From Candidatus Thorarchaeota archaeon (GTDB lineage: Archaea > Asgardarchaeota > Thorarchaeia > Thorarchaeales > Thorarchaeaceae): DNA of 64,000 nt. The notes under the pieces were generated by a model that worked only from the letters and a program-made list of their open reading frames with translations, ran no database searches and was not told where the DNA came from. Each line of letters begins with the position of its first letter. Within the stretch, counting starts at the first letter, position 1. Made by a program: the position numbers and the translations under genes. Below are positions 2,536 through 16,651 of this stretch, piece by piece. The DNA is taken from the NCBI GenBank assembly GCA_048882325.1, contig JBHLRS010000008.1, positions 51,530 to 115,529 on the forward strand, written 5' to 3'.

Positions 2536-4272
2536 CTACTCTACGTAGACTTGTCGGACCTCCCTGATAACAAGACCAGGTAGGTCCTTTGCGGACTTTA
2601 TAGGATACACGTTGGCTCCAACATCCTCAAGCGCTCTTTGTGTCTTCGTCTTCCGCTTTGAACTTCCTCCTATATGGAACAAGAACAGTTTGTGACCTCT
2701 ATTGGTCAATAAACGGATGGACTCGACAAACTTATCCCAATTTGCTATCTCCGCGTCGGTCATCATAAGAACCATGACTTTTGATTCCGCGTTCTCGCAA
2801 GCACTTTCTATCTTCTTGATTGGAGCGACCGTACCACCACCCTGATAGGCAAGTAGAATATGTTCAACCTCAAACTTAGATTTCGACCATTTACTTGACC
2901 GACTTCCACTTGAGAAGTTAATCGCAGCTACTCTAGAACCTCGTCGCAGAGCTACTTCCATAGCAGCAAAAGCAGCCACCAATGCAGTATGATATGGACC
3001 CCTCATCGTCTTGGATGTCATCCCCCATGTCATCGACCCACTTGAATCAATCACTAATAGCATGTCAGGTAGTGACTTGGAATGCTCAAGTCCCTCTGAA
3101 CTCATCTTCAGCCACTTGCGAGTTGAAAGATTGGGTATGAGAACCGGGAATGCTTGAAGTGATTGAACAATGTCCAACTCTTCGATGGGGTCGCCCATTC
3201 TCCAGACCAGTGGAGTGAGAGGAGCCAAGCCTGCGAACGTTCGCGCCTGCACCTCAATCCGAAGCATATCTTTTGCCTTTGCGCGATACCAGAAGCGTAT
3301 CCATGATTCTCGAGGATCACCATATCCTGCGGTGAGATACACTCCCTCTAGATCTTGGAGATCTCCACCACGTTGCTCGACCTCAGCGGCCAATTCCTCC
3401 ATTTCAGCTTCTAGATCAGAATGCGAGTCTTTCTTTAGACATCTTCGGGCCATGTCACCGTTTCTAACCTCAATTGGACTACCTATGACCGTATCGACAT
3501 CTAGAGGAACCATAATCGTGGTTACCTCGCCACCAGCTTCACTCCCAGCTTCCTTTCCTTTTGTCTGTCTGCCAATTCCAGGTAACTGTTCATCTTCATC
3601 TTGGGGAAACCAATCTGCTATTATCTCAGCGATCTTCTCACAGGCCCTAGGCCATCGTTTCTCAACATCAATGGATTTCCGTGCCACGTCAGCTATAGAA
3701 GCCGCAGCTTCAGATGTTCGTTGGTCTATTTTCACTCTTGCTGGAAGGGGAAATCCCCACATCGCCCGATATATAGCAACAATAAGGTTCCAAAGCGGGC
3801 TATGGTTACGAACTCTCATCGCTGAGTCATGGATGGAATCATTGATTCTGCTATGTGTTAGTGTAGGATATCGTTTCAAGAGCTTCGAGTCGACCACCAA
3901 ATCAGCGTAAAGATTGCATACAAACATTGCCGTTGCATCATTCACCTTCTTTCGTGCTGCAGCAAACATCATCCCATTTGTGACCCCATCATAAGGACAA
4001 AGAAGATAGTGCTGAATCTCATGATGACATACTGAGCGAAGATATGGCTCAGCCTCATTCGCATCCATGTGCAGTGGTACACCCGCAGTGTTGAGGTGGA
4101 CCGTCCAGTTGCTGGAATCAATGTAGAAAAAGCTCGCTGCCTCAGCAACATTCTCTATCTCCGGCTCTGGAAGCGGAGGGTGATAAAAATCGATGAGCGC
4201 CTGACCCCATGCGCGCAGAGCAACCTCGATGAGGCTCTGTCCATGGGATGTTCCAGAAGTCGCTCGTGACAC
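2536..4272 (-). CDS. VWA-domain protein with N-terminal HExxH metallopeptidase-like domain (MoxR partner)
   Basis: HHEIQH; MIDAS DSSGS...GGT...MTDAE; 6 nt downstream of the MoxR gene. Confidence 0.85.
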   Translation of the reverse strand: MSRATSGTSHGQSLIEVALRAWGQALIDFYHPPLPEPEIENVAEAASFFYIDSSNWTVHLNTAGVPLHMDANEAEPYLRSVCHHEIQHYLLCPYDGVTNGMMFAAARKKVNDATAMFVCNLYADLVVDSKLLKRYPTLTHSRINDSIHDSAMRVRNHSPLWNLIVAIYRAMWGFPLPARVKIDQRTSEAAASIADVARKSIDVEKRWPRACEKIAEIIADWFPQDEDEQLPGIGRQTKGKEAGSEAGGEVTTIMVPLDVDTVIGSPIEVRNGDMARRCLKKDSHSDLEAEMEELAAEVEQRGGDLQDLEGVYLTAGYGDPRESWIRFWYRAKAKDMLRIEVQARTFAGLAPLTPLVWRMGDPIEELDIVQSLQAFPVLIPNLSTRKWLKMSSEGLEHSKSLPDMLLVIDSSGSMTWGMTSKTMRGPYHTALVAAFAAMEVALRRGSRVAAINFSSGSRSSKWSKSKFEVEHILLAYQGGGTVAPIKKIESACENAESKVMVLMMTDAEIANWDKFVESIRLLTNRGHKLFLFHIGGSSKRKTKTQRALEDVGANVYPIKSAKDLPGLVIREVRQVYVE

Positions 4273-4278
4273 AGCATA

Positions 4279-5997
4279 TCAGTCTCCTATATGTTGTTCA
4301 ATTTCTTTCTTCAAGTTGAGTGCATCAGTACCTCCAGATATCTCTAAGAATACAGAGGAGTCAGGGGAGTCACCTGTTGTATAAATGACCACCGTGAGAC
4401 CGTCAGTTCTCACAATCTTTCTTTTCGGAGGTGACAGGGTTTCCTTCAGGATGCTTGTCAACTTAGGATACTGGAGACTAATCACAGTCCAAAGGTCTTG
4501 CCACTGCTCAAAGGTAATAGAAAATTGTGTCAGTGTTAGTCTATGCAGAGCATCTGAAACTTGCTTCAACAGCATACTCCTATTTGGAAATTCTGTGTTC
4601 ACCAACAGTTCATCATAAATATCTGTGAGCTGTTCGACATTTCTATCCTTGATGCCTTTCTCGATGTTCTTCACAGTCTTTGTGTAGCCTGATTTTCTCA
4701 GTTCCTTAGCAAAGGATGTGTAATCAAGACGAACCAACAAATCACTCTTAGCCATCTCCTTGAGTTCATCCATTCCATCCTTTGACTCCTGGCCTAACTT
4801 CAACTTCTCTAGAATGGCTATTGCAGGAGTGCGTTGGGCGAATCTGGATGAGGCCAGCTCAACAAGATGTTTCGTATAGGCATAGATATCACCAAAAAAT
4901 GGCGAACGTTCAAGCTCATCACGGGTCAGTCTAGTTCGGTGCCAGAAAACAAGCGGTGCTAAGGACTTGACAATCTCAACACTAACCTCCTGAGCACCCA
5001 CTAGCCATGCAGCAGCTTTGGAGTATCTATTGAGGTCCTTCGCAGCTCGGACGCTCAGGGGAATTATCACCTTGTTACATACACTCTTGCCCGTATTGAA
5101 ATGACAGCCATCGCACAGACCAGTTTCTACTGTCAGACCGGAAGACTGGCTCTTATCGGCACGGATACACGCTCCAAACTCTCGAACCAATGATCGCATG
5201 AACTCTGATGCCTCTGTTGAAACATGAACCTTGTCCGCCAAATTCCAGATTGTCAATAAGTTCTCTTCTGTGAGCATTGCAGGAACCTGCCAGAGCTCGT
5301 CAAAACCAAAGAGTCGTTCATCGCGAGCTGCAAGAATAAGTTCCAAGTCATTTACAGTAGGCATTGTGATAGGTACAGCAAGTCCAAACCGGTCAAGGAA
5401 TGGAGGTCCCATATCAAAGGTGCCTGCATCAGCAGGGTTCAGTGTTGCATAGAGACAGTATTCCTCACACCTTTTAATCTCATCGTAGTACTTTACCTCT
5501 CCCTCAGCCAATAATGAGAGCAGGATGTTTTGAGCATGCGGAGTGAGTCGGTTAACCTCGTCAATTATCTTCCAGAAGTCGGTGACGAAACGACGCCAGA
5601 CAACAACCTCAATCCCATCTTTCATGAGTGGACCAGGTTTTAATGTTGCCACCATTTTCTCTTCTGTAAGTTGCGGATGTCCTCGTAGAATGCCGTCCTC
5701 GATATCATCAAGTTTCTTTCCTGTCATCATTCTTCCTAACAACTTCACAAGTGTAGTTTTCCCACCACCATGACCCCCTACTAAGAGCATAGCTGATCTC
5801 GGAACAAGAGCATTCAACACGCATGAACCTACAATCAAAGGGAATCTAGTTGTTTTGATGGACCTCTTCTTTGAGCTTGGATCGTTATACTTGACCTCAA
5901 GATCTGACGAGTGGACAAAGAGACCCCTACTTTCAACCGTGGACATCACACTCAATACTAGCTCTCGAAGCTTCTCACTCTGACTCATAAGAACCAC
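4279..5997 (-). CDS. MoxR-family AAA+ ATPase with Cys-rich insertion
   Basis: Walker A GGHGGGKTT, Walker B IIDEVNR, QNILL, ATLNP, FLDRF, SVRAA; CIR...CDGC...SVC insertion. Confidence 0.88.
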   Translation of the reverse strand: MVLMSQSEKLRELVLSVMSTVESRGLFVHSSDLEVKYNDPSSKKRSIKTTRFPLIVGSCVLNALVPRSAMLLVGGHGGGKTTLVKLLGRMMTGKKLDDIEDGILRGHPQLTEEKMVATLKPGPLMKDGIEVVVWRRFVTDFWKIIDEVNRLTPHAQNILLSLLAEGEVKYYDEIKRCEEYCLYATLNPADAGTFDMGPPFLDRFGLAVPITMPTVNDLELILAARDERLFGFDELWQVPAMLTEENLLTIWNLADKVHVSTEASEFMRSLVREFGACIRADKSQSSGLTVETGLCDGCHFNTGKSVCNKVIIPLSVRAAKDLNRYSKAAAWLVGAQEVSVEIVKSLAPLVFWHRTRLTRDELERSPFFGDIYAYTKHLVELASSRFAQRTPAIAILEKLKLGQESKDGMDELKEMAKSDLLVRLDYTSFAKELRKSGYTKTVKNIEKGIKDRNVEQLTDIYDELLVNTEFPNRSMLLKQVSDALHRLTLTQFSITFEQWQDLWTVISLQYPKLTSILKETLSPPKRKIVRTDGLTVVIYTTGDSPDSSVFLEISGGTDALNLKKEIEQHIGD

Positions 5998-7177: not shown

Positions 7178-8317
7178 TTGTCCGAAGACGTAATATGCCT
7201 TCAGACGAACGACCGAAAAGCCAGCAGTCAGTGGGGAAGAAAGTTGGGTGATAATAAGGAATTCATAGAAACAGTAACCCTCACCACTCCGGAACAGGTT
7301 CCAACAGAGAGAGTAAGCCAGTACTCTGTGGTGACTTTTGCAACTGAATTTCTTCAACGTCTCAGAAGATATGATGTCCTGAAAGTGCAGATGAATGAAC
7401 GCGGGTTAGAATTTGGAGGAAGAGTTTTACTGATAGGACCTTCGGGTACTGACTTTGGAGCCTTTCCACACTTTCTTGCGCGGGAGGTACCAGTCAAAAT
7501 CATCCGTTTCAAAATGGAGGGTTTTTTTGACGAGAACAAAAGGAGTAATGCTGCACTAAGAGAAGGGTTTGAGTTCGCAAGACGAAACTCACCCGCTTTG
7601 CTCTATATAGAGAAACTCGAGGCACTTGCACCAAGAGATTCAGTGCAGTCAATTGTGTTTCAAGATGAACTCAAGACCACAGGATGGAGTGGGGAAGAAG
7701 TGGTGGTGGTCACTGCTACAACACGACCTGAAAAGGTTGACAGGGAACTCCTTGCACTGTATGATAGAACCTACATTGTAGAAGGTACAACCATAGACGA
7801 CCGGATTAGGATTCTTGAACAAGTCCTGAAAGACCGTGATGACATTGATGTGACGACTATAGCAGAGCTTACTGAGGGATGGGGCTTTTCCGATATAACC
7901 CATCTCGCAACAAGTCTCTACATGCAAGAACCATCAGAGGGTGGTGAGATGCCGCGAGATATGATCGAGGAATTGATTGAACACAGTCGTGTAGGAGCTT
8001 TCGGTGATTCCAAGTTCCTTGATTCAGTCGTAAGAAAGACTAGGGGTACTAAGCAACCTGAAATTAGTAAGTTGAGTGAAGAATATCCGGATGACTTTCT
8101 TGATCAGCTGTACTTGATGGCGGTCGGGGATGATTATTCAGAAACTCAACGTGTGATTGAGGTCCTTAATGAAGGACTACCTCTATCAGCAAAAGACAGG
8201 GAGTTTCTTAGTAGGCATCCATTCCTCTTAACTGGAACCGCAGAGGACAGACTGACGAGGCTCCTTAGAGCAAAGAAAAGCAGCGATAGACTTCATAGGA
8301 TAATGGGAAGACAGTAG
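7178..8317 (+). CDS. Classic-clade AAA+ fold protein with degenerate catalytic motifs (pseudo-ATPase); start uncertain
   Basis: VLLIGPSGTDFG (Walker A without GKT), FEFARRNSPALLYIEK (Walker B without DE), ATTRP, RIRIL, AELTEGWGFSDI lid; stop directly abuts the SMC ATG. Confidence 0.8.
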   Translation: MSEDVICLQTNDRKASSQWGRKLGDNKEFIETVTLTTPEQVPTERVSQYSVVTFATEFLQRLRRYDVLKVQMNERGLEFGGRVLLIGPSGTDFGAFPHFLAREVPVKIIRFKMEGFFDENKRSNAALREGFEFARRNSPALLYIEKLEALAPRDSVQSIVFQDELKTTGWSGEEVVVVTATTRPEKVDRELLALYDRTYIVEGTTIDDRIRILEQVLKDRDDIDVTTIAELTEGWGFSDITHLATSLYMQEPSEGGEMPRDMIEELIEHSRVGAFGDSKFLDSVVRKTRGTKQPEISKLSEEYPDDFLDQLYLMAVGDDYSETQRVIEVLNEGLPLSAKDREFLSRHPFLLTGTAEDRLTRLLRAKKSSDRLHRIMGRQ

Positions 8318-11300
8318 ATGAGTGAAACGAAGGTAAATATCGAATCAGTGAGGTTGGGAAATTTCCTGTCCTTCTACGAAGGAACCGTTGAGTTTGACAA
8401 AGGGCTCACTGTATTAGCTGGTCCTAACGGATCCGGAAAAACCTCAATCTTCCATGCAATGAAATTTGCCCTTGGATCAAACCAGAGAGAGAATCGATAC
8501 AGCAAATGGAGTGACTTTATCAGACATGGAGCGAGCACAGCCGAAGTGGAAATAAGAGTCAGGGTGAACGGTCAGAGTCGCAAATTCCTTAGACGAATTG
8601 ATAGAGATGGCATCCCACGAGCATATACAGATGGACGCCGTGTCAAGGCTGCAGAACACAAGCAGATGATTAGTGCACTTGGTCTTGAAACTGACAATCC
8701 TTTGGTCTTTATGCCTCAAGAAAGAATTAATGCTGTTCGAGATATGGACCCATTTGAGGTCAGACGCTTGGTGGAAGAGGGAACGGGCCTTGATATTCTC
8801 AGAGATAGAATTGGATTACAAGAAACTGAGGTGACCCAGAGTCGACTCAAACTGGAAGCAGCATTGACAGAGTCTAGAACAGTTGAACGAGAACTCGAAC
8901 TTCTACAACACGATCTCTCTCGGTTAGAAAAGAAGAGAGCTTTACAAGAACAAGAAAGGGAGCTGGAACAGGAGCTAAAGTGGGCCAGCTTTGATGACCT
9001 ATCAGAGAGAATTCGGCAGACAAAGGAGGAGATAGAAACAAAGGAGTCAGGACTTGTTGGCGTTCTTGAAGAGCAAACGACCATTGAAGGACAAATCTCA
9101 GAGCAGGAAGAAGTGAGTTCTGAGCTGGAAAGTAATCTCTCGGGCTTACAGACAGAGATTGGTAGAATTGATGCGAAAATAGAGGAAGAAGAGAAGAATC
9201 TCGCGAAACTCAAAGGTGACTCCAGACAGCAAGTGGCTGAGCTAAAGCAACTTGAAACTAGTATCAAGTCTGAAAAGAGTAAAGAGGAGAAACTCAAAGA
9301 AGATCTGGAACGTGTTTCAGCAGCTAGGGAGCAGTATATGGACCAGCAGAAGATGCTCCGCGAGGAAATAGCAGAGCTAGAGGACGAGCGAGCGAGAATA
9401 CGTGATGAACTCGCTGCATTCGCAGAGTGGAACACAAAAAGAGCAGAGGCACATGGGCACTATAAGGCACTTCAAGTAGAGATTGAGGGCAAAGACCTAC
9501 TGACGAGAAGCCTTCGTGAAAGACTCCAGGTTGAGGAGGCTGAACTTCAAGCAATAGAAAGCAAGTGGTCACACGTATGGGATAAGATAGAGGCTACAGA
9601 TGCCAAAGAGTTGGAGCGAAAGAAATCACAACTGGAAAGAGAAATCGCATCTCTCAATGAAGAACGATTCAGAAAGACGAGTCTTGTTGCACAACTACAG
9701 AAAGACATTGATGATATTAAGGTCAGACTGTCTGAAACTTCAAAGCGCATCCCAGAGTCTGTGAGAAGTCTTAAGGAAGCAGTTTCCGAACACAATCTAG
9801 AAACTGTTAGGGGTCCACTGATTAGTCTCTTCACAGCAAATGATGATATTTCAGCGGCCGTGGAAGGAGTCCTCTCAGGTAATCTTCCACTCGCCTTTGT
9901 CACCACAGAGTACTCTGACTACCAGCTTCTCCTCAAACTTCGCAACAAAGAAGAAGCTCCCGCGCCAGTAATCCTACTGAGAGAAGAGGTGAGCAAAGAG
10001 AGACCGGATATACCTCAAGGGGCAGGTGTTGAGGACTGGTTGTGGGACAGACTCAACGCAGACCCTGATGTTCAGAAGCTTCTAGCAAGGGTGTTTGGAG
10101 ATTTCATACTAGTCAAGAATTCTCAGACAGCATCAAGACTTGCGACAAAACATAATCTTAGAGTTGTTACTCTCGATGGAGCAGTCACAATTCCAGATGA
10201 TACCCAGGTTGTCAGTCACCCTAAAAGTGAGCCATCAGGAATGGTTTCAACCGCACCACTTCAAACCAGATTGGCAAAGATGGAGAAGGATCTTACGTTT
10301 GAACGAAAGAAAGTCACTGAGATAATGACGAAACTTGAAACTCTTTCAAATGAACGTGAGGAAACAATGGACCTGATTAGTCAGATGACACGGTGGGGGT
10401 CAACATGGGAGCGACGTCGAAAGCTCAACGAGAGTATTCCGGAGCTTGAGGAACGAATTGTTTCCATCGATGATGAGCTGAAGACTCTGCAACGCGACTA
10501 TGGCAAAGCGGAAAGAAACCTAAGAAAACTCGACAGCACACAACCTCCTGAACGGAGTAGATTGGTGGGACAAGAGGCTGCTATCAGGACAAAACACAGA
10601 CGTCTTCAGAGTGACCTCAATAAAGTTGACACAAAGGCCCATGCATCGGAAAAGGACGAGGAACTCAAGCGACAAGAATTGAGGAGAGTCAAAGAGAATA
10701 TCACTGTCCTGTCAGACAGCCTGACGGATCTACGTCAGGAGATTAAGGATTCAAAGGATGCAACATCATCAATCCTAGAAAGAATCGAGGTGATGCGTGA
10801 GGGTAGAGAAGAAACACACAATAGACAGATTCAGATTAAGGAAGAGCTGACCCAGATACGATCAACAACTCGAACATTGAGTGAGCGATTAGTCGAACTG
10901 AATCTTCTCATTAAGAACCGTAGACTCGAAGTACTACAATCGAAAAGGCAACTTTCAAACCTAGAATATGACCTTGAATTGATAGAGCAAGAGCTTCAGG
11001 GTAAAAATCGACCAGAGAGTGTTCGAGCTATTGATCTCGTCAGGAGTGAACTCGTAAAGCTTAGACATATCTTGGATGACTATCAGGATGTTTCTGAAAC
11101 AGTGGCTCACACAGAGAACCAATTGAAGGACAGACTAAAGGAACTTGTCGAGCGTGTTGCAGAGCTGGGTGAGGAACTAGATGAGGCTGAGTCTGCTGTA
11201 CGTAACATCAAGGAGCAGTACCACAATGGAATGAATGAAACACTTCGGAAAGTAGAGAAGGGAGTGAATGAGGTTTTAGGACGAGTCCAGTTTCCAGGGA

Positions 11301-11686
11301 GTGTTAGATTCGAACTCGCACTGAGAGATGGCAGGTATGGGGTTGAGTTCAAGTCGAGAATCAAGACTGAGGGTTTTGGTTCAATCAGTGCAGGTTCAGG
11401 CGGCGAAAGGTCTCTCATCGCAATCGGATTAATTTTAGCTCTCCAGGGTTTTAATCCTGCACCAGTGTACGTAATGGATGAGGTTGATACATTTCTAGAT
11501 GCAACAAACACCGAGCTGGTCAGTCGATTATTTCATGATGCGTCACGTCGCAGTCAATTTATCATTCTCACACCTGCAAAGAGTACCCACTTGTTGAAAC
11601 ATGCTGACAAAATCCTTGGGGTTGTTTCACCTAATGGAGTGGATCCTTCTGTGATTATTGAGAGTCCTAAGTTCAAAGCGCAATAG
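8318..11686 (+). CDS. smc: SMC protein, Smc5/6-like
   Basis: NFLSF, GPNGSGKT, Q-loop NPLVFMPQERI, two long coiled coils, hinge (GPLISL...VTLDG), SGGERS, MDEVD, QFIILTP. Confidence 0.92.
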   Translation: MSETKVNIESVRLGNFLSFYEGTVEFDKGLTVLAGPNGSGKTSIFHAMKFALGSNQRENRYSKWSDFIRHGASTAEVEIRVRVNGQSRKFLRRIDRDGIPRAYTDGRRVKAAEHKQMISALGLETDNPLVFMPQERINAVRDMDPFEVRRLVEEGTGLDILRDRIGLQETEVTQSRLKLEAALTESRTVERELELLQHDLSRLEKKRALQEQERELEQELKWASFDDLSERIRQTKEEIETKESGLVGVLEEQTTIEGQISEQEEVSSELESNLSGLQTEIGRIDAKIEEEEKNLAKLKGDSRQQVAELKQLETSIKSEKSKEEKLKEDLERVSAAREQYMDQQKMLREEIAELEDERARIRDELAAFAEWNTKRAEAHGHYKALQVEIEGKDLLTRSLRERLQVEEAELQAIESKWSHVWDKIEATDAKELERKKSQLEREIASLNEERFRKTSLVAQLQKDIDDIKVRLSETSKRIPESVRSLKEAVSEHNLETVRGPLISLFTANDDISAAVEGVLSGNLPLAFVTTEYSDYQLLLKLRNKEEAPAPVILLREEVSKERPDIPQGAGVEDWLWDRLNADPDVQKLLARVFGDFILVKNSQTASRLATKHNLRVVTLDGAVTIPDDTQVVSHPKSEPSGMVSTAPLQTRLAKMEKDLTFERKKVTEIMTKLETLSNEREETMDLISQMTRWGSTWERRRKLNESIPELEERIVSIDDELKTLQRDYGKAERNLRKLDSTQPPERSRLVGQEAAIRTKHRRLQSDLNKVDTKAHASEKDEELKRQELRRVKENITVLSDSLTDLRQEIKDSKDATSSILERIEVMREGREETHNRQIQIKEELTQIRSTTRTLSERLVELNLLIKNRRLEVLQSKRQLSNLEYDLELIEQELQGKNRPESVRAIDLVRSELVKLRHILDDYQDVSETVAHTENQLKDRLKELVERVAELGEELDEAESAVRNIKEQYHNGMNETLRKVEKGVNEVLGRVQFPGSVRFELALRDGRYGVEFKSRIKTEGFGSISAGSGGERSLIAIGLILALQGFNPAPVYVMDEVDTFLDATNTELVSRLFHDASRRSQFIILTPAKSTHLLKHADKILGVVSPNGVDPSVIIESPKFKAQ

Positions 11687-11699
11687 GAGGCGAGGAATC

Positions 11700-12359
11700 A
11701 TGAATGAAACTATGAGCCTTGCTGAAAGCGTGTTCAATATGGTGCAAGCAGTTCGCGCAGGTGAGATTGATCCGCTGGAAATGCGATTGACTCAGGCATA
11801 CAAGAACCTCCAGGAACTGGTTGCCAAGATTGACAGGCGGATTGACATAGACGAGATGTTAAACGAGATTCTTAGTACAAAGGTGGATCGAGTGCAGGAG
11901 CTTGCACGTATTCTTGCTGCACCTGAACTATATGTCAGCCGACTCAAGGATATCTCAATGAGAAACCTCGCAAAACTCGTGACACCGAAGCAACCTGTCG
12001 TTATCGGACATCTTGATCACGAATCACTTGATGATGCCCTCAACCGAGTGGTGACATTAATCGATGCAATGCAGAGAGAGCCTCCTGAAGACGAGGTCCC
12101 GAAGATAGCAGAACTTCCCAATGGTTTTACACTCGATACAGAAGACTCCGTGTTTTTAGAGGACCTAGACAGTTTTCTTGCTACAATCCCAAATGGCGAC
12201 AGAACAGAGTTTGATGACCTTGTGATGAATGAAGAGCTCGATCTTTTTCTGAAACATTTCCTTTACGTGGTCATCCTAGTTTCAAAGGGAAGACTGAACT
12301 ATGACCCAGAAACTCGCGAAGTCTGGAGACCCTCAGTCTCCGAGATTGATATGACATAA
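11700..12359 (+). CDS. Kleisin (ScpA/Nse4-like)
   Basis: N-terminal GEIDPLEMRL and C-terminal winged-helix FDDLV...FLKHFLYVVILVSKGRL resemble ScpA; ATG at 11700 after GGAGG, 13 nt past the smc stop (track start 11658 probably too early). Confidence 0.72.
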   Translation: MNETMSLAESVFNMVQAVRAGEIDPLEMRLTQAYKNLQELVAKIDRRIDIDEMLNEILSTKVDRVQELARILAAPELYVSRLKDISMRNLAKLVTPKQPVVIGHLDHESLDDALNRVVTLIDAMQREPPEDEVPKIAELPNGFTLDTEDSVFLEDLDSFLATIPNGDRTEFDDLVMNEELDLFLKHFLYVVILVSKGRLNYDPETREVWRPSVSEIDMT

Positions 12360-12382: not shown

Positions 12383-13723
12383 TCAAGCAGGAACCTCGAC
12401 TAGGAACTCTTGTGAAATATCTGACTCTTCATCAACTGGTTTTGATAAACCTGCGTGAAGATTCAGTTTGGAAACAACTATGAAACCTAGGAGTGAAACT
12501 AGTACAAGTACGAGAGCTGCGCTTGTCATAGGGGGTCCTGTTGCTGCGACAGTCTCCGCCCAGACTCCGCCAATAGTCATTCCAACAACTTGCAGAGCAG
12601 TAAAGACTAAACTTAGGAGTGAGAAGACACGTCCTCGAAGTTCATCCTCAACAAGCTCTTGCATGAGTACGTTAAGGGGAATAATCAGAACTACATCCAC
12701 TGCACCAATAATTGCCCAAGGTAGCATAACTGTCACAAAGTCAAATGCAAGGACAAGTCCCAAGATCGCAATACCAGCCAAAAATTCTGCAAATACTACC
12801 AGATAGAGAGGTCTATCGATCTCTCTCTTGCGACTGAAGTAGACTGCCGCAGTGGCTCCTGAAGCAGCTCCTGCACTCAACACAAGACCGACCTGGACTG
12901 AACCCAAACCAAGCTCACCCTCTAGGTATGGCATGAGCAGAGCGTTCAAAATACCCGATGACACTGCAAGGAGCATTGCAAAGACAAAGAGGAATGACAG
13001 AATCGAATTTCCAATGACGTAGCGACCGCCTTGCTTTATCTGTGCCATCAAGGACTCCTTGTCATCTAGATCTCTATTCGGGATGAGATTAGTCCTGATT
13101 CCACGAAGTGCAAGTGCAGAGAAAAGGAAAGTTGCAGAGTTAATGGCGAACGCGAGGAAATAATCTGGGGCAAGGAGTGCAACGAGAATTCCACCGATTG
13201 GAGGGACTACCAACTGAACAACTTGGAATGTCATCTGAGAGAGAGAGTTCGCTGCTACTAACTCATCACCTTCTACGAGATTGGGGATTGCTGCACTCCT
13301 TGCAGGAAAGAACCATGCATTTGCAGTAGCATAGAGAAATGTGAGTAAGTAAACCCAATAGATTGTTGGCATAGATGTGGGGAAATAAATTGTGAGAGGA
13401 ATGAGTAGAATTGTGATTGCTCGTACTACATCTGATGCAACCATGATCTTCTTGCGGTTCCATTGATCAATATAGACACCAATGGGACCAGCAAAAACAA
13501 CAACAGGTAATGTCTGAGCAATGGCAAGAAGCGCCATGGATATGGCAGAGCCTGTTAGGTCGTAGGCATAAAACATGAGAGCAAGATATGCAATCGCTGT
13601 TCCAATGTTAGATACTAGTTGACCAGACCAGAGCAATGAGAAGTCACGATGAGCTAGAACTGCTCTGAATCCTTTCGGATCATCGTGACTTTCACTTTGA
13701 AGTTCTGTGACGACTTCGGTCAT
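12383..13723 (-). CDS. MFS transporter (MefA/EntS-like H+ antiporter)
   Basis: FSLLWSGQLVSNIG, motif A GVYIDQWNRKKIM, PARSAAIPNLV, ELRGRVFS; about 12 TM segments. Confidence 0.9.
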   Translation of the reverse strand: MTEVVTELQSESHDDPKGFRAVLAHRDFSLLWSGQLVSNIGTAIAYLALMFYAYDLTGSAISMALLAIAQTLPVVVFAGPIGVYIDQWNRKKIMVASDVVRAITILLIPLTIYFPTSMPTIYWVYLLTFLYATANAWFFPARSAAIPNLVEGDELVAANSLSQMTFQVVQLVVPPIGGILVALLAPDYFLAFAINSATFLFSALALRGIRTNLIPNRDLDDKESLMAQIKQGGRYVIGNSILSFLFVFAMLLAVSSGILNALLMPYLEGELGLGSVQVGLVLSAGAASGATAAVYFSRKREIDRPLYLVVFAEFLAGIAILGLVLAFDFVTVMLPWAIIGAVDVVLIIPLNVLMQELVEDELRGRVFSLLSLVFTALQVVGMTIGGVWAETVAATGPPMTSAALVLVLVSLLGFIVVSKLNLHAGLSKPVDEESDISQEFLVEVPA

Positions 13724-13728
13724 TCAGT

Positions 13729-13827
13729 TTATCTCCGGAAGTAAGCACGGGCCACTGCATCAGTGGAAACGACATTCCTTGTCTTCTTCCAAACTCGAGG
13801 AGTTCCATTGATCTTTGCAAGTGCCAT
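13729..13827 (-). CDS. 32-aa basic small ORF upstream of the MFS gene (MALAKINGTPRVWKKTRNVVSTDAVARAYFRR)
   Basis: GGAGGT 7 nt before the ATG; TAA ends 5 nt before the MFS ATG; below the ORF-track cutoff. Confidence 0.6.
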   Translation of the reverse strand: MALAKINGTPRVWKKTRNVVSTDAVARAYFRR

Positions 13828-14050
13828 TCGATTTACCTCCGATAGGTGTACGCATGAGTAATGGCATCGGTGGAGACCATTGCCTTGTTGTTCTTCAGCA
13901 CAGATTTAGTTCCTGAGTTAGTTGTTAAAGCCATGATATTTCACAAAAATCACTGCTCAGATTTAGTATATATAGCGGAGCCACTTCATAGGGTCACAGA
14001 AAGAAGTCACATATTGTTACTACTCATAGGAAGCAGGTGGTAGAAAAATC

Positions 14051-14833
14051 ATGACGAAGTCGATACTAATTGATGAGAAGACCTTGCAAGTATTTGCTCA
14101 CTTTGAAGAGTTCTACTTCAATGCGTTTGGTCAACAGAAAGTACCAAACCCTGCTTACAAGAATAGACTCTCCAAGTTCTTCGAGATTATCAAAGAGAAT
14201 CACAGCGAAGAGGAACTGGTTGTTGGACCAATAACAAGGGAAAACCTGGGAGATGCTTTATGTTTAGTTATATTGACAAGAATTCACGCTTTTTCAGAGG
14301 ATGAACTGAGGGCGACAGTCGATTTCCTGCAAAACCCAGAACACAGTCTCCTGTTAATGTCTAATCATAATCCGTTTGAGATGCACGATAACGAACTTAC
14401 AAGCAAGTTGGGAATATCACTGACAGGAGGATACTACAGTGGTGAAAGAGGAGTGTATACAGAGATCAGTGAAGATTGCATGACACATCATCCGATAATC
14501 GAAGGAGAAGAGTCTGAGAAACCAATCTCTAAAATTCTAACAAACACAACCTGCCGTATTGAATCAAAACTTGGCACTCCATTCATCTACTTGCCAGATA
14601 CAATGGTTGGTCGGTGGTCTTCTGAAGGTGAGTCGCCACTACGAAATAGAATCTTCGGACTTGCTATTGACGGTCAAAAGGAGCCTAATGAGATTATCAA
14701 GGGAAAAGTAATTGTCCTCGGTGATTCTGGATTTTTAGGAGACAAGGATTCAACATTTCCTGGATTTGGAATGATTGATAGGGGTGACAATGAGATATTC
14801 ATACAGAGGATGTTCCGATACCTCTTGGACTGA
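14051..14833 (+). CDS. GIFT/DUF4350-like (GldG/IFT52-type, GATase-like fold) protein
   Basis: FSEDEL..F, N.LTSKLGI, HPIIEG, GKVIVLGDS..DNEIFIQRMFRYL pattern. Confidence 0.55.
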   Translation: MTKSILIDEKTLQVFAHFEEFYFNAFGQQKVPNPAYKNRLSKFFEIIKENHSEEELVVGPITRENLGDALCLVILTRIHAFSEDELRATVDFLQNPEHSLLLMSNHNPFEMHDNELTSKLGISLTGGYYSGERGVYTEISEDCMTHHPIIEGEESEKPISKILTNTTCRIESKLGTPFIYLPDTMVGRWSSEGESPLRNRIFGLAIDGQKEPNEIIKGKVIVLGDSGFLGDKDSTFPGFGMIDRGDNEIFIQRMFRYLLD

Positions 14834-14922
14834 TTGCAAAATCGTGGCGCTCTTCTGCAATTCTTCTAACAGAAACCCTCATACTTTAAACAACAACTAG
14901 TTTTGAAAGACTGTTGGACATA

Positions 14923-15084
14923 ATGAATGAGTATGCTATCCTCATGAAGGTCCTAAGGAGATCTGGAGACCCCATTGGTGAAGGAGTAGAGGACATGCTT
15001 GATGCTCTAGGTCTACCAGATGACATAGGAAGAGAAACCCTATTCAGGAGAATGAGAGTGCTATACAAACGATTTGATGCCTAA
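14923..15084 (+). pseudogene. Truncated duplicate (53 aa) of the N-terminus of the KITE-like gene at 15722
   Basis: MNEYAILMKVLRRSGDPIGEGVEDMLDALGLPDDIGRETLFRR aligns with MNEYAILMKLLTRAGDPIGAGVDDMLDALGLPEDIGRDVLFKR; upstream DNA is also similar. Confidence 0.8.
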
Positions 15085-15156
15085 CAGATATTTTCCAGCA
15101 AATTCATCACTATGAAAACTTCAATATGAAGCCAGATTCGAGATGTCGATTGAAGA

Positions 15157-15624
15157 TTAATTCTCCTTCTGTTCTCTCGATGTTTCTTTCCTACCTGAAG
15201 TTGGTTTGGCAATGTAGATTTGACGTGAAATAGCCATTCCTAAACACCAACCTGCAAAGAGTGTCAGAAGAATCAACCACCAGATAGGATCTACCAACCC
15301 CGAAACTTCATCGATTCCTGCGAGAGTATCAGCTAACTCACTTGTGATTAGAAGACACATGATGAAAGCAATCAATCCATAACTTGGACTGAACTTGCAA
15401 TCCTGTTGCGAAACAGCGTCATCCCGGAAAGTGAAGTATTCGACTAAACCACCAAAACCGACGAAAATCAGTTGCAAGGCTATAAACATCATAAAGAGAG
15501 ATGAATCTATCAATAGAAGAAGCAAGACTCCTGTACAAAATATTGCACAAAAAACGACTGCTTTGACTCTTTCATGTTTGATATCAAATTGCCTACTGGT
15601 CATGATCCCACTCAGGAAACACAA
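15157..15624 (-). CDS. Hypothetical membrane protein (~4 TM)
   Basis: 155-aa ORF with four hydrophobic segments. Confidence 0.65.
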   Translation of the reverse strand: MCFLSGIMTSRQFDIKHERVKAVVFCAIFCTGVLLLLLIDSSLFMMFIALQLIFVGFGGLVEYFTFRDDAVSQQDCKFSPSYGLIAFIMCLLITSELADTLAGIDEVSGLVDPIWWLILLTLFAGWCLGMAISRQIYIAKPTSGRKETSREQKEN

Positions 15625-15721
15625 TCTGTGATTGGCCTCTATTTTACCTTTACGCGGCGCGCTTCACACAAAGGGACCTCACACTTTATACAGGCTCAGA
15701 TGATGATGAACAGTGTTTCAG

Positions 15722-16225
15722 ATGAACGAGTATGCCATTCTGATGAAGCTCCTCACAAGAGCAGGAGACCCAATCGGCGCAGGTGTCGATGACATGCTTG
15801 ATGCTCTTGGGCTACCTGAAGACATAGGACGAGATGTGTTATTCAAGCGACTTGGTGAACTCCACTCAAGACTTGAACCAGTTGGCCTCACCATAAAACA
15901 CAATCCCGTGAGTGGTGTGTTCTATGTTGACACTTCAATCCAGTCTAAGATGCAAAAGGACGATTCTGTACTCCCAGACAAATTGGCGGCAACTCTTCTT
16001 ATTGTCATCACTCTGGCCTATCAAGAGGGTGGATGGATTTCCTTTGACAGAGTAAGAGAGTTTCGTAAAAAGAGCTTGAGAGGAGTCATGGAGGACCTAA
16101 GAGATCTTCAGAAGCTAAACTATGTTGAGCTAGACCAGCCTAGTAAGCGGGTTCGACTAGGTCTTCGTGTTCCATTTGAGATTGACTATGAGGCATTCTT
16201 TAGAGACCTTGTATCTGAGAGTTAG
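15722..16225 (+). CDS. Tandem winged-helix protein, KITE (ScpB/Nse1/Nse3/MksE)-like
   Basis: LHSRLEPVGLTI...GVFYV then LPDKLAATLLIVITLAYQ...ISF...LRDLQKLNYVE resembles ScpB/MAGE WH-A/WH-B; 3.4 kb from the kleisin; ATG supported by the duplicate. Confidence 0.6.
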   Translation: MNEYAILMKLLTRAGDPIGAGVDDMLDALGLPEDIGRDVLFKRLGELHSRLEPVGLTIKHNPVSGVFYVDTSIQSKMQKDDSVLPDKLAATLLIVITLAYQEGGWISFDRVREFRKKSLRGVMEDLRDLQKLNYVELDQPSKRVRLGLRVPFEIDYEAFFRDLVSES

Positions 16226-16291
16226 CTCCAATTGTTCGGCCCCTTCGTTAGTTTTATCAAGGCACCATCTGTGAAAAACTCGGTCGGAATC

Positions 16292-16651
16292 ATGTCACAC
16301 AGACGTTCACTAAGATTCGCAAAAACGACCTGCCCTATCTGTGGCAGCAAGGAAGTCGCCCGTGACGATCACAAGGGAGACCTCCTCTGCACAAACTGTG
16401 GACATATCATTGTCCGAACAGAAACCAGATCTGTAGGTAAGTTTGACATTGCTCAACATATCAAGAGGAATGGAAAGATGACTTTCCCGATGCTCAAGTC
16501 AGCCACAGGGGCCTCAGACGACAAGCTCTTCGGTGTTTTACGAAACATGGTTGAGATGGGACTGCTCTCTGAGATTCAAGGACAGTACTCACTCACCAAG
16601 AAGGGAAATAGATGGTACCGTCAGAGGCAGGGACAGGAGTGGGGTTACTAG
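16292..16651 (+). CDS. TFIIB-type Zn-ribbon fused to a winged HTH
   Basis: CPICGS...DDHKGDLLCTNCG then L..MVEMGLL...YSLTKKG; no cyclin folds, so not TFB itself. Confidence 0.75.
   Translation: MSHRRSLRFAKTTCPICGSKEVARDDHKGDLLCTNCGHIIVRTETRSVGKFDIAQHIKRNGKMTFPMLKSATGASDDKLFGVLRNMVEMGLLSEIQGQYSLTKKGNRWYRQRQGQEWGY

What the first reader, a model, noticed from the sequence alone, without database searches (positions are those of the whole stretch)
7178..12359. Smc5/6-like operon led by a catalytically dead AAA+ protein: candidate new SMC-complex subunit
Seen: the AAA gene stop is immediately followed by the smc ATG (TAG|ATG at 8315-8320), and a kleisin-like gene starts 13 nt after smc. The AAA protein keeps the Cdc48/PAN/Vps4-type scaffold but has lost every catalytic element: Walker A GPSGTDFG, Walker B YIEK, sensor-1 ATTRP, no arginine finger (ELLALYDR). 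It adds a ~100-aa C-terminal helical domain. Established: characterised SMC complexes (Smc-ScpAB, MukBEF, Wadjet, Smc5/6, cohesin, condensin) use kleisin, KITE or HAWK partners, not classic AAA+ folds. Inference: an intact ORF with coordinated loss of all motifs and tight coupling suggests a structural adaptor, loader or ring for an archaeal Smc5/6-like machine.
Basis: partly seen in the sequence, partly recalled or inferred. Interest (0 to 1): 0.85.

Follow-up and report, generated by a model that had tools for sequence, protein, structure and literature searches.

The report
Dead AAA+ partner of Asgard SMC

Summary
A 357-aa protein with a classic AAA+ fold has no Walker A Lys/Thr, Walker B acidic pair, sensor-1 Asn, Arg finger or pore loop. 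Its gene abuts a divergent SMC gene (TAG|ATG), and a small kleisin-like gene follows 13 nt later.

This is not local decay. The dead motifs are conserved across Thor-, Loki- and Baldr-type orthologues, and dN/dS is about 0.06-0.09.

Gene order AAA-SMC-kleisin-like held in 48/48 and 39/39 informative Thor loci, and in 18/18 loci from 12 other Asgard families. The AAA-specific C-terminal domain co-occurs with the kite-like subunit family by family. Thor genomes lacking both also lack the SMC paralogue.

Distant orthologues keep parts of the ATPase site (Odin-labelled: all motifs; Hel, Jord/Frey: Walker A only). The family is therefore an ancestrally active AAA+ that became a pseudo-ATPase.

Sampled Thermoproteota SMC-kleisin-kite operons have no such gene, and neither does this genome's canonical Smc-ScpA-ScpB operon.

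Physical binding is untested, and the "Smc5/6" label rests on published phylogenies, not on tests made here.

No paper in the held library mentions the partner. The scan has found the same thing before on other DNA (e1-4839787 and others).

The parts
7244..8317 (+). Pseudo-AAA+ gene (357 aa from TTG 7244; the longest ORF starts at TTG 7178)
   Evidence: Classic-clade AAA+ fold. Orthologues are mostly called as 356-357 aa.
7436..7459 (+). Degenerate Walker A (GPSGTDFG; D70/F71 in place of Gly-Lys)
   Evidence: GTDF is conserved in about 48 of 54 family members.
7604..7615 (+). Degenerate Walker B (YIEK in place of hhDE)
7715..7768 (+). Sensor-1 (ATTRP, Asn to Thr) and the shortened Arg-finger region (DRELLALYDR, 2-residue deletion, no Arg finger)
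8009..8314 (+). Family-specific helical C-terminal domain ending in a basic helix (LTRLLRAKKSSDRL.RIMGR). It is the most conserved part of the protein.
   Evidence: dN/dS 0.034. No Pfam, PDB-sequence or Atlas match.
8318..11686 (+). Divergent SMC paralogue (1122 aa) with intact head motifs and hinge
   Evidence: TIGR02169 scores 300 bits against a cut-off of 729. The canonical SMC lies elsewhere in the genome (862 bits).
11700..12359 (+). Kleisin-like gene (219 aa)
   Evidence: Its position after the SMC is conserved in 39/39 Thor loci and in other Asgard classes. No Pfam or PDB match. A low-confidence model shows N-terminal helices and a C-terminal winged-helix-like unit.
15713..16225 (+). 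Kite-like gene (170 aa), displaced here by an inserted MFS transporter and other genes. In many relatives it directly follows the kleisin-like gene.
16232..16651 (+). Zn-ribbon plus winged-helix gene that follows the kite-like gene in Thor-type operons
   Evidence: L059; L074.

Best explanation
The gene encodes a non-catalytic protein derived from a classic-clade AAA+ ATPase. It is a dedicated accessory component (a stable subunit or an obligate regulator) of the second, non-canonical SMC-kleisin-kite complex of Asgard archaea. Shown: it is co-encoded and probably translationally coupled with the SMC, it co-occurs with and is co-lost with the rest of the cassette, and it is under purifying selection although it has no ATPase site. 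Inferred: it acts through its lid and its conserved helical, basic-tailed C-terminal domain. These are the only parts retained in all lineages. It would dock on the SMC/kleisin/kite module or on DNA and modulate loading or the SMC ATPase cycle. That role resembles Nse5/6 or other SMC loaders and regulators, without any homology to them. The ancestor was probably an ATP-binding or ATP-hydrolysing remodeller. Thor, Loki and Baldr lineages kept only the scaffold.
For: (1) Linkage. AAA-SMC adjacency held in 48/48 Thor-type species loci with downstream sequence, and AAA-SMC-kleisin-like in 39/39, while the flanking genes vary. The most distant full-length relatives (24-29% identity; Odin-labelled, Helarchaeales and one unnamed) are also directly upstream of an SMC gene, with 4-nt overlaps. 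18/18 informative loci from other Asgard families show the same order; these include Baldr, Harpocratesius/Promethearchaeia and Jord/Frey.
(2) Co-occurrence. The C-domain occurs in 213/400 Asgard genomes and the kite-like protein in 224/400, with matching family tallies (f21 14/14 for both, f22 122/135 for both, and 0 for both in f8, f10, f11, f13, f14). In the Thor family, 60 genomes have both, 13 have neither and 12 are discordant. Genomes lacking both (up to 96% complete) also lack the SMC paralogue. So do sampled genomes of the negative families.
(3) Selection. dN/dS is 0.06-0.09 for the AAA gene (0.034 for the C-domain), against 0.04-0.055 for the SMC and 0.06-0.14 for the kleisin-like gene.
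(4) Conserved degeneracy and a motif gradient across lineages.
(5) Specificity. The canonical Smc-ScpA-ScpB operon of the same genome has no AAA gene. The 8 Thermoproteota SMC-kleisin-kite loci examined have none within 11 kb.
Against: There is no direct evidence of binding. No AAA-SMC fusion protein was found (a weak test). The C-domain has no recognisable relative that would suggest a binding mode. Conserved gene order shows a functional link, not membership of the complex. The survey genomes are related MAGs, so the counts are not independent events.
Confidence: 0.6

Rival explanations
1. It is a transient assembly or quality-control factor. An AAA+-derived chaperone helps fold or dimerise the long SMC coiled coil, or load kleisin, but is not part of the working complex.
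For: Classic-clade AAA+ ancestry (p97, FtsH, Vps4-like). The Odin-labelled orthologue keeps Walker A/B, sensor-1 and a YLG pore loop typical of unfoldases. The tight gene junction with the SMC (TAG|ATG here; 4-nt overlaps in relatives) would allow co-translational action.
Against: Most lineages lack nucleotide binding and pore loops, so active remodelling is impossible there. The gene is nevertheless as constrained as the SMC.
Confidence: 0.15
2. It is an operon hitchhiker. The AAA-like gene has an unrelated cellular role and is kept next to the SMC gene only through shared transcription.
For: Nothing specific beyond the absence of direct interaction evidence.
Against: Adjacency survives class-level divergence while all other neighbours change, and the genes are gained and lost together. 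The protein is single-copy and is found only next to this SMC paralogue.
Confidence: 0.12
3. The cassette is a Wadjet- or Lamassu-like defence system against foreign DNA, with the AAA-like protein as a sensor or adaptor, rather than a chromosome-maintenance complex.
For: SMC-kleisin-kite architecture. One kite orthologue has a weak DUF4194 (JetB/MksE-type) hit at E 0.002. Eukaryotic Smc5/6 also restricts extrachromosomal DNA (stated in 10.1101/2024.01.07.573240).
Against: No PADLOC family matches the kleisin-like, kite-like or Zn-ribbon proteins. Only generic P-loop hits appear for the SMC, and a weak IetA hit for the AAA. No nuclease gene was recognised in the cassette. Presence is near-universal, single-copy and syntenic within whole Asgard families, unlike the patchy distribution of defence islands.
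Confidence: 0.08
4. It is a decaying pseudogene of a Cdc48/PAN-type ATPase.
For: All catalytic motifs are lost.
Against: The ORF is intact in more than 200 genomes, dN/dS is about 0.07, the replacement motif (GTDF) is conserved, and there is a highly conserved extra domain.
Confidence: 0.01

Closest known systems
Archaeal 'SMC5/6-related' SMC-kleisin-kite operons of TACK and Asgard archaea (Yoshinaga & Inagaki 2021, PMC8665677; preprint 10.1101/2024.01.07.573240)
   Same: It is a second SMC paralogue beside the canonical Smc-ScpAB, encoded with its own small kleisin-like and kite-like genes.
   Different: Those descriptions list three subunits and never mention an AAA gene (0 occurrences). Here a fourth conserved gene heads the operon throughout the Asgard families that carry it. 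It was not seen in the 8 sampled Thermoproteota operons.
Nse5/Nse6 (and Nse2) accessory subunits of eukaryotic Smc5/6
   Same: The proposed role is the same: a non-SMC, non-kleisin, non-kite accessory that regulates loading or the ATPase. This is inference only.
   Different: No homology. Nse5/6 are alpha-solenoids regarded as eukaryotic additions. This protein has an AAA+ fold plus a novel helical domain.
Classic-clade AAA+ ATPases (p97/Cdc48, FtsH, PAN, Vps4, Msp1)
   Same: It has the alpha/beta core, lid fold and N-linker, and profile and structural matches are strong.
   Different: Walker A, Walker B, sensor-1, Arg finger and pore loop 1 are all missing in the Thor protein, and it carries an extra C-terminal domain.
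Non-catalytic AAA+-fold partners such as clamp-loader delta/delta' and LAP1/LULL1 with Torsin (from general knowledge)
   Same: An AAA+ fold is retained as a structural or regulatory module without nucleotide hydrolysis.
   Different: Those proteins work within AAA+ assemblies. Here the only conserved genomic partner is an ABC-type SMC ATPase, and no Arg finger is available to donate.
Archaeal rad50-mre11-herA-nurA operons (from general knowledge)
   Same: An SMC-like ABC ATPase is encoded in an operon with a second P-loop NTPase of another class.
   Different: HerA is an active FtsK/HerA-type hexameric translocase. This protein belongs to the classic AAA+ clade and is mostly inactive.

Membership tests
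Classic-clade AAA+ (PF00004) fold | alpha/beta P-loop core plus four-helix lid | tested here: met
   Pfam E 1e-9. PDB profile E 3e-52 to p97. Foldseek and VIA Z about 18 over residues 1-262.
Active AAA+ ATPase | Walker A GxxGxGK[ST] | tested here: not met
   GPSGTDFG. D70/F71 are conserved across Thor-type orthologues.
Active AAA+ ATPase | Walker B hhhhDE, sensor-1 Asn, Arg finger, aromatic pore loop 1 | tested here: not met
   LYIEK, ATTRP, a 2-residue deletion that removes the Arg finger, and pore loop 1 absent.
SMC protein family | N- and C-terminal ABC head halves with Walker A, signature motif and Walker B, long coiled coil, hinge | tested here: met
   SMC_N E 4e-38 spanning residues 8-1104 and SMC_hinge E 2e-9. 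Motifs are visible. Full-length matches to SMC2/Smc.
Canonical prokaryotic SMC (TIGR02169 equivalog) | Score above the curated cut-off | tested here: not met
   300 bits against 729. The canonical copy at G000:C42 scores 862 and has ScpA/ScpB next to it.
Archaeal SMC5/6-related clade | Phylogenetic placement with eukaryotic SMC5/SMC6 | not tested
   No eukaryotic sequences could be brought into a tree here.
Archaeal SMC5/6-related clade | Greater similarity to Smc5/Smc6 than to other SMCs | tested here: inconclusive
   The PDB profile ranks SMC2 (1e-46) and Smc (1e-44) above Smc5 (1e-30) and Smc6 (1e-25). An HMM ranking is not a phylogeny.
Kleisin | N-terminal helical domain that binds the SMC neck and C-terminal winged helix that binds the SMC cap | tested here: inconclusive
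   No Pfam or PDB match. The monomer model has pLDDT 53, with N-terminal helices and a C-terminal winged-helix-like unit. The operon position is conserved.
Kite (ScpB / Nse1-3 / MukE type) | Tandem winged-helix protein encoded after the kleisin | tested here: inconclusive
   No Pfam ScpB hit. One orthologue hits DUF4194 weakly. No PDB sequence match. It follows the kleisin-like gene in most lineages.
Wadjet / Lamassu defence systems | JetA/JetB/JetD or LmuA/LmuC partners | tested here: not met
   PADLOC gives only generic head-domain hits for the SMC and none for the kleisin-like, kite-like or Zn-ribbon proteins.

The most novel reading that the evidence does not exclude
The AAA+-derived protein is a stoichiometric fourth subunit of the Asgard second SMC complex. 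It began as an ATP-driven loader or ring-opener and became a nucleotide-free regulator of the SMC ATPase and DNA-entry gate. It would be the Asgard functional counterpart of Nse5/6, and a class of SMC partner (neither kleisin, kite nor hawk) not seen in any characterised SMC complex.
Probability: 0.3. Interest if true: 0.85.

Novelty: new variant of a known kind. Interest (0 to 1): 0.72.

Why it matters
In characterised SMC complexes (Smc-ScpAB, MukBEF, Wadjet, condensin, cohesin, Smc5/6) the core partners are kleisin plus kite or hawk proteins. A conserved AAA+-fold partner would be a new type of SMC accessory. It occurs in Asgard archaea, the lineage from which eukaryotic SMC complexes are thought to derive, and it is attached to the paralogue that published phylogenies relate to Smc5/6. 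The family also offers a natural series, from motif-complete through ATP-binding-only to nucleotide-free forms and forms with a truncated core. That series makes the role of nucleotide binding in such a partner directly testable. Cultured Promethearchaeia appear to carry the operon type, since the Harpocratesius/Promethearchaeaceae relatives do, so experiments are feasible.

Tried and rejected
- Complex prediction, with the AAA protein against SMC head N (1-210), head C (920-1122) and the kleisin-like protein, each with a 25-row alignment: score 0.00, verdict 'no answer'. It is not evidence either way.
- Search for longer or fused proteins carrying the C-domain (Rosetta-stone test): none found, a weak test.
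- ESM Atlas feature search on the C-domain: only sub-threshold hits.
- Pfam on 26 C-domain sequences at E<=1: no consistent family.
- PDB sequence-profile searches for the kleisin-like and kite-like families: nothing meaningful.
- AF2 model of the kleisin-like protein alone: pLDDT 53, too poor for a fold search.
The whole-model searches only test residues 1-262.
- First attempt to reach Thermoproteota through locus L083: that genome is not held. It succeeded through L084/G400.
- Pseudogene or local-decay reading: rejected.
Full report
**What is there**

The window comes from a Thorarchaeota MAG; the homologue names and the genome G000 show this. Three tightly packed plus-strand genes occupy 7178/7244-12359.

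- The first gene's stop (TAG, 8315-8317) is followed at once by the ATG of a 1122-aa SMC gene.
- The SMC stop is followed by a 13-nt spacer containing GGAGG, and then by the ATG of a 219-aa gene at 11700.
- Most database gene calls, and the alignment of orthologues, start the first gene at the TTG at 7244 (357 aa) rather than at the longest-ORF TTG at 7178.

**The first protein: an AAA+ fold without the chemistry**

- Pfam AAA matches at E 1e-9.
- A 54-sequence family profile matches p97/Cdc48 D1 and D2 at E 3e-52 over residues 45-237.
- The AF2 model has mean pLDDT 87.
- It matches FtsH, p97, Msp1, spastin, Vps4 and PAN by Foldseek and by VIA-align, with Z about 18 over residues 1-262.

The residue-by-residue alignment to p97 and the motif table show the following:

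| Element | Canonical | Here |
|---|---|---|
| Walker A | GPPGTGKT | GPSGTDFG |
| Walker B | IFIDELD | LYIEKLE |
| Sensor-1 | ATNRP | ATTRP |
| Arg-finger loop | present | removed by a 2-residue deletion |
| Pore loop 1 (aromatic-x-Gly) | present | absent |
| After Walker B | - | about 8-residue deletion |

Residues about 256-357 form an extra all-helical domain that ends in a basic helix. It has no Pfam, PDB-sequence or Atlas relative. It is the most conserved part of the protein.

**Not local decay**

An exhaustive phmmer search finds a small family (about a dozen 50%-identity clusters with full-length matches) well separated from generic AAA+ proteins. GTDF replaces GTGK in about 48 of 54 aligned members, down to 33% identity.

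Nei-Gojobori dN/dS among eight close Thor orthologues:

| Gene or region | dN/dS |
|---|---|
| AAA gene | 0.06-0.09 |
| AAA core plus lid | 0.075 |
| C-domain | 0.034 |
| SMC | 0.04-0.055 |
| Kleisin-like | 0.06-0.14 |

**Linkage to the SMC**

- A pattern scan of one genome per GTDB species returned 50 loci.
- The SMC follows the AAA gene in all 48 loci with downstream sequence.
- The kleisin-like gene follows in all 39 loci that extend that far.
- The flanking TauE and MFS genes are not conserved.
- The three most distant full-length relatives are labelled Odinarchaeota, Helarchaeales and unnamed, at 24-29% identity. They also sit immediately upstream of an SMC gene, overlapping it by 4 nt. 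Genes of about 205-244 aa and about 173-175 aa follow.

**Survey of the phylum**

A profile of the C-domain alone found the family in 213 of 400 Asgard genomes. I fetched 20 loci from 12 families.

- All 18 informative loci show AAA-SMC, usually followed by kleisin-like and kite-like genes.
- Source names place these in Baldrarchaeia, Harpocratesius (Promethearchaeaceae) and Jord-/Freyarchaeia, in addition to Thor.
- A profile of the kite-like protein gives nearly the same distribution by family. Examples: f21 14/14 for both profiles, f22 122/135 for both, f23 4/4 for both, and zero for both in f8, f10, f11, f13 and f14.
- In f16, f18 and f19 the C-domain profile failed, but the loci still carry an AAA-family gene upstream of the SMC.
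- Within the Thor family, 60 genomes have both, 13 have neither and 12 are discordant.
- One Thor genus lacks both in 6 of 7 genomes, including genomes 92-96% complete.
- Five of the Thor genomes lacking both were checked (two of them 92% and 96% complete genomes of that genus). Only the canonical SMC, or no SMC at all, is detectable; the paralogue is gone too.
- Sampled genomes of the negative families also lack the paralogue.

The cassette is therefore inherited and lost as a unit.

**Ancestral cassette**

In many Thor relatives a roughly 170-aa kite-like gene and a Zn-ribbon/winged-helix gene directly follow the kleisin-like gene. In this window they lie at 15713-16225 and 16232-16651. An oppositely oriented MFS transporter gene and other genes separate them from the kleisin-like gene.

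**Specificity**

- The same genome has a canonical SMC (862 bits to TIGR02169, against 300 for the window's SMC). ScpA and ScpB lie downstream of it, and no AAA gene lies upstream.
- In 401 Thermoproteota genomes the kite profile gave 16 weak hits.
- The 8 loci examined contain kleisin-like and kite-like genes (5 of the 8 also a short SMC of about 590 aa), but no AAA-family ORF within 11 kb.
- A search seeded with the Jord/Frey orthologue found only Asgard family members and then generic Cdc48/FtsH proteins.

On this evidence the AAA partner is Asgard-specific. The TACK sample is small and its hits are weak.

**Motif gradient**

| Lineage | State of the ATPase site |
|---|---|
| Odin-labelled orthologue | Keeps GPPGTGKT, LDEFD, ATNHE and a YLG pore loop |
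| Helarchaeales | Walker A kept; Walker B is D-P |
| Jord/Frey | GTGKT kept; Walker B is D-N, a change expected to allow binding without hydrolysis |
| Two unnamed families (f18, f19) | GNGKT kept; Walker B is [DE]-N |
| Thor, Loki-type, Baldr | Everything lost |
| Baldr-type and f15 proteins (276-315 aa) | Also lack most of the alpha/beta core, but keep the lid and C-domain |

The constant functional core is therefore the lid plus the C-domain. ATP turnover is dispensable in most lineages.

**Interpretation**

The best-supported reading (about 0.6) is a dedicated, non-catalytic accessory component of this SMC complex.

- Shown: co-encoding, tight coupling, co-inheritance and co-loss, purifying selection, and absence of an ATPase site.
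- Inferred: physical docking through the lid and C-domain, and a regulatory or loading role.

Rivals are a transient assembly chaperone (0.15), a functionally unrelated operon passenger (0.12), a defence-type SMC system (0.08; PADLOC gave no specific hits) and a pseudogene (refuted). A homohexameric ring seems unlikely given the loss of nucleotide binding and of the Arg finger.

**What I could not establish**

- The single complex prediction gave no answer.
- No fusion proteins were found.
- The kleisin and kite assignments rest on gene position, size and weak structural hints.
- The 'Smc5/6-like' label was not tested. The SMC profile scores SMC2 and prokaryotic Smc above Smc5/6 among solved structures. 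The published assignment of the second archaeal paralogue is phylogenetic (PMC8665677; 10.1101/2024.01.07.573240).

**Novelty**

The two papers that describe archaeal SMC5/6-related SMC-kleisin-kite operons do not mention an AAA gene. Further full-text searches found no report either.

Earlier notes of this scan describe the same association on other genomes. One is a follow-up that reached the same conclusion.

Noticed in passing
window 12383-16651: The kite-like gene (15713-16225) and a Zn-ribbon/winged-helix gene (16232-16651) directly follow the kleisin-like gene in many Thor relatives. Here they are separated from it by an oppositely oriented MFS transporter gene (12383-13723) and a 260-aa ORF with no family match (14051-14833). 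This is a lineage-specific insertion into the operon.
   Followed up: partly
window 2536-5997 (minus strand); L059 4886-6577: A MoxR-like AAA_5/AAA_lid_2 gene and a VWA-domain gene lie upstream of the cassette. A similar AAA_5 gene also lies upstream in the distant relative L059. No functional link was examined.
   Followed up: no
G000 (own genome), second kite-profile match: The kite-like profile has two matches in the window's genome.
   Followed up: no
L001-L050, cassette genes: Most AAA, SMC and kleisin-like genes of the Thor cassettes appear to start with TTG or GTG rather than ATG.
   Followed up: no
L078 5570-8077; L082 5292-7790; L089-L092: The AAA-linked SMC of Jord/Freyarchaeia is only about 835 aa. 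The Thermoproteota SMC-like genes next to kleisin-like and kite-like genes are about 590 aa, so their coiled-coil arms are much shorter than in the 1122-aa Thor protein.
   Followed up: no
L069 2954-3792: In one f15 genome the AAA-family gene is split over two frames (2966-3268 and 3301-3789), while the SMC downstream is intact. This is either a frameshift or an assembly error.
   Followed up: partly
L051 (G000:C42) 3-1296: Upstream of the canonical Smc-ScpA-ScpB operon lie a Roadblock/LC7 (LAMTOR5-like) gene and a VWA protein with a weak Sec23/Sec24 zinc-finger hit. These are eukaryote-signature-type domains.
   Followed up: no
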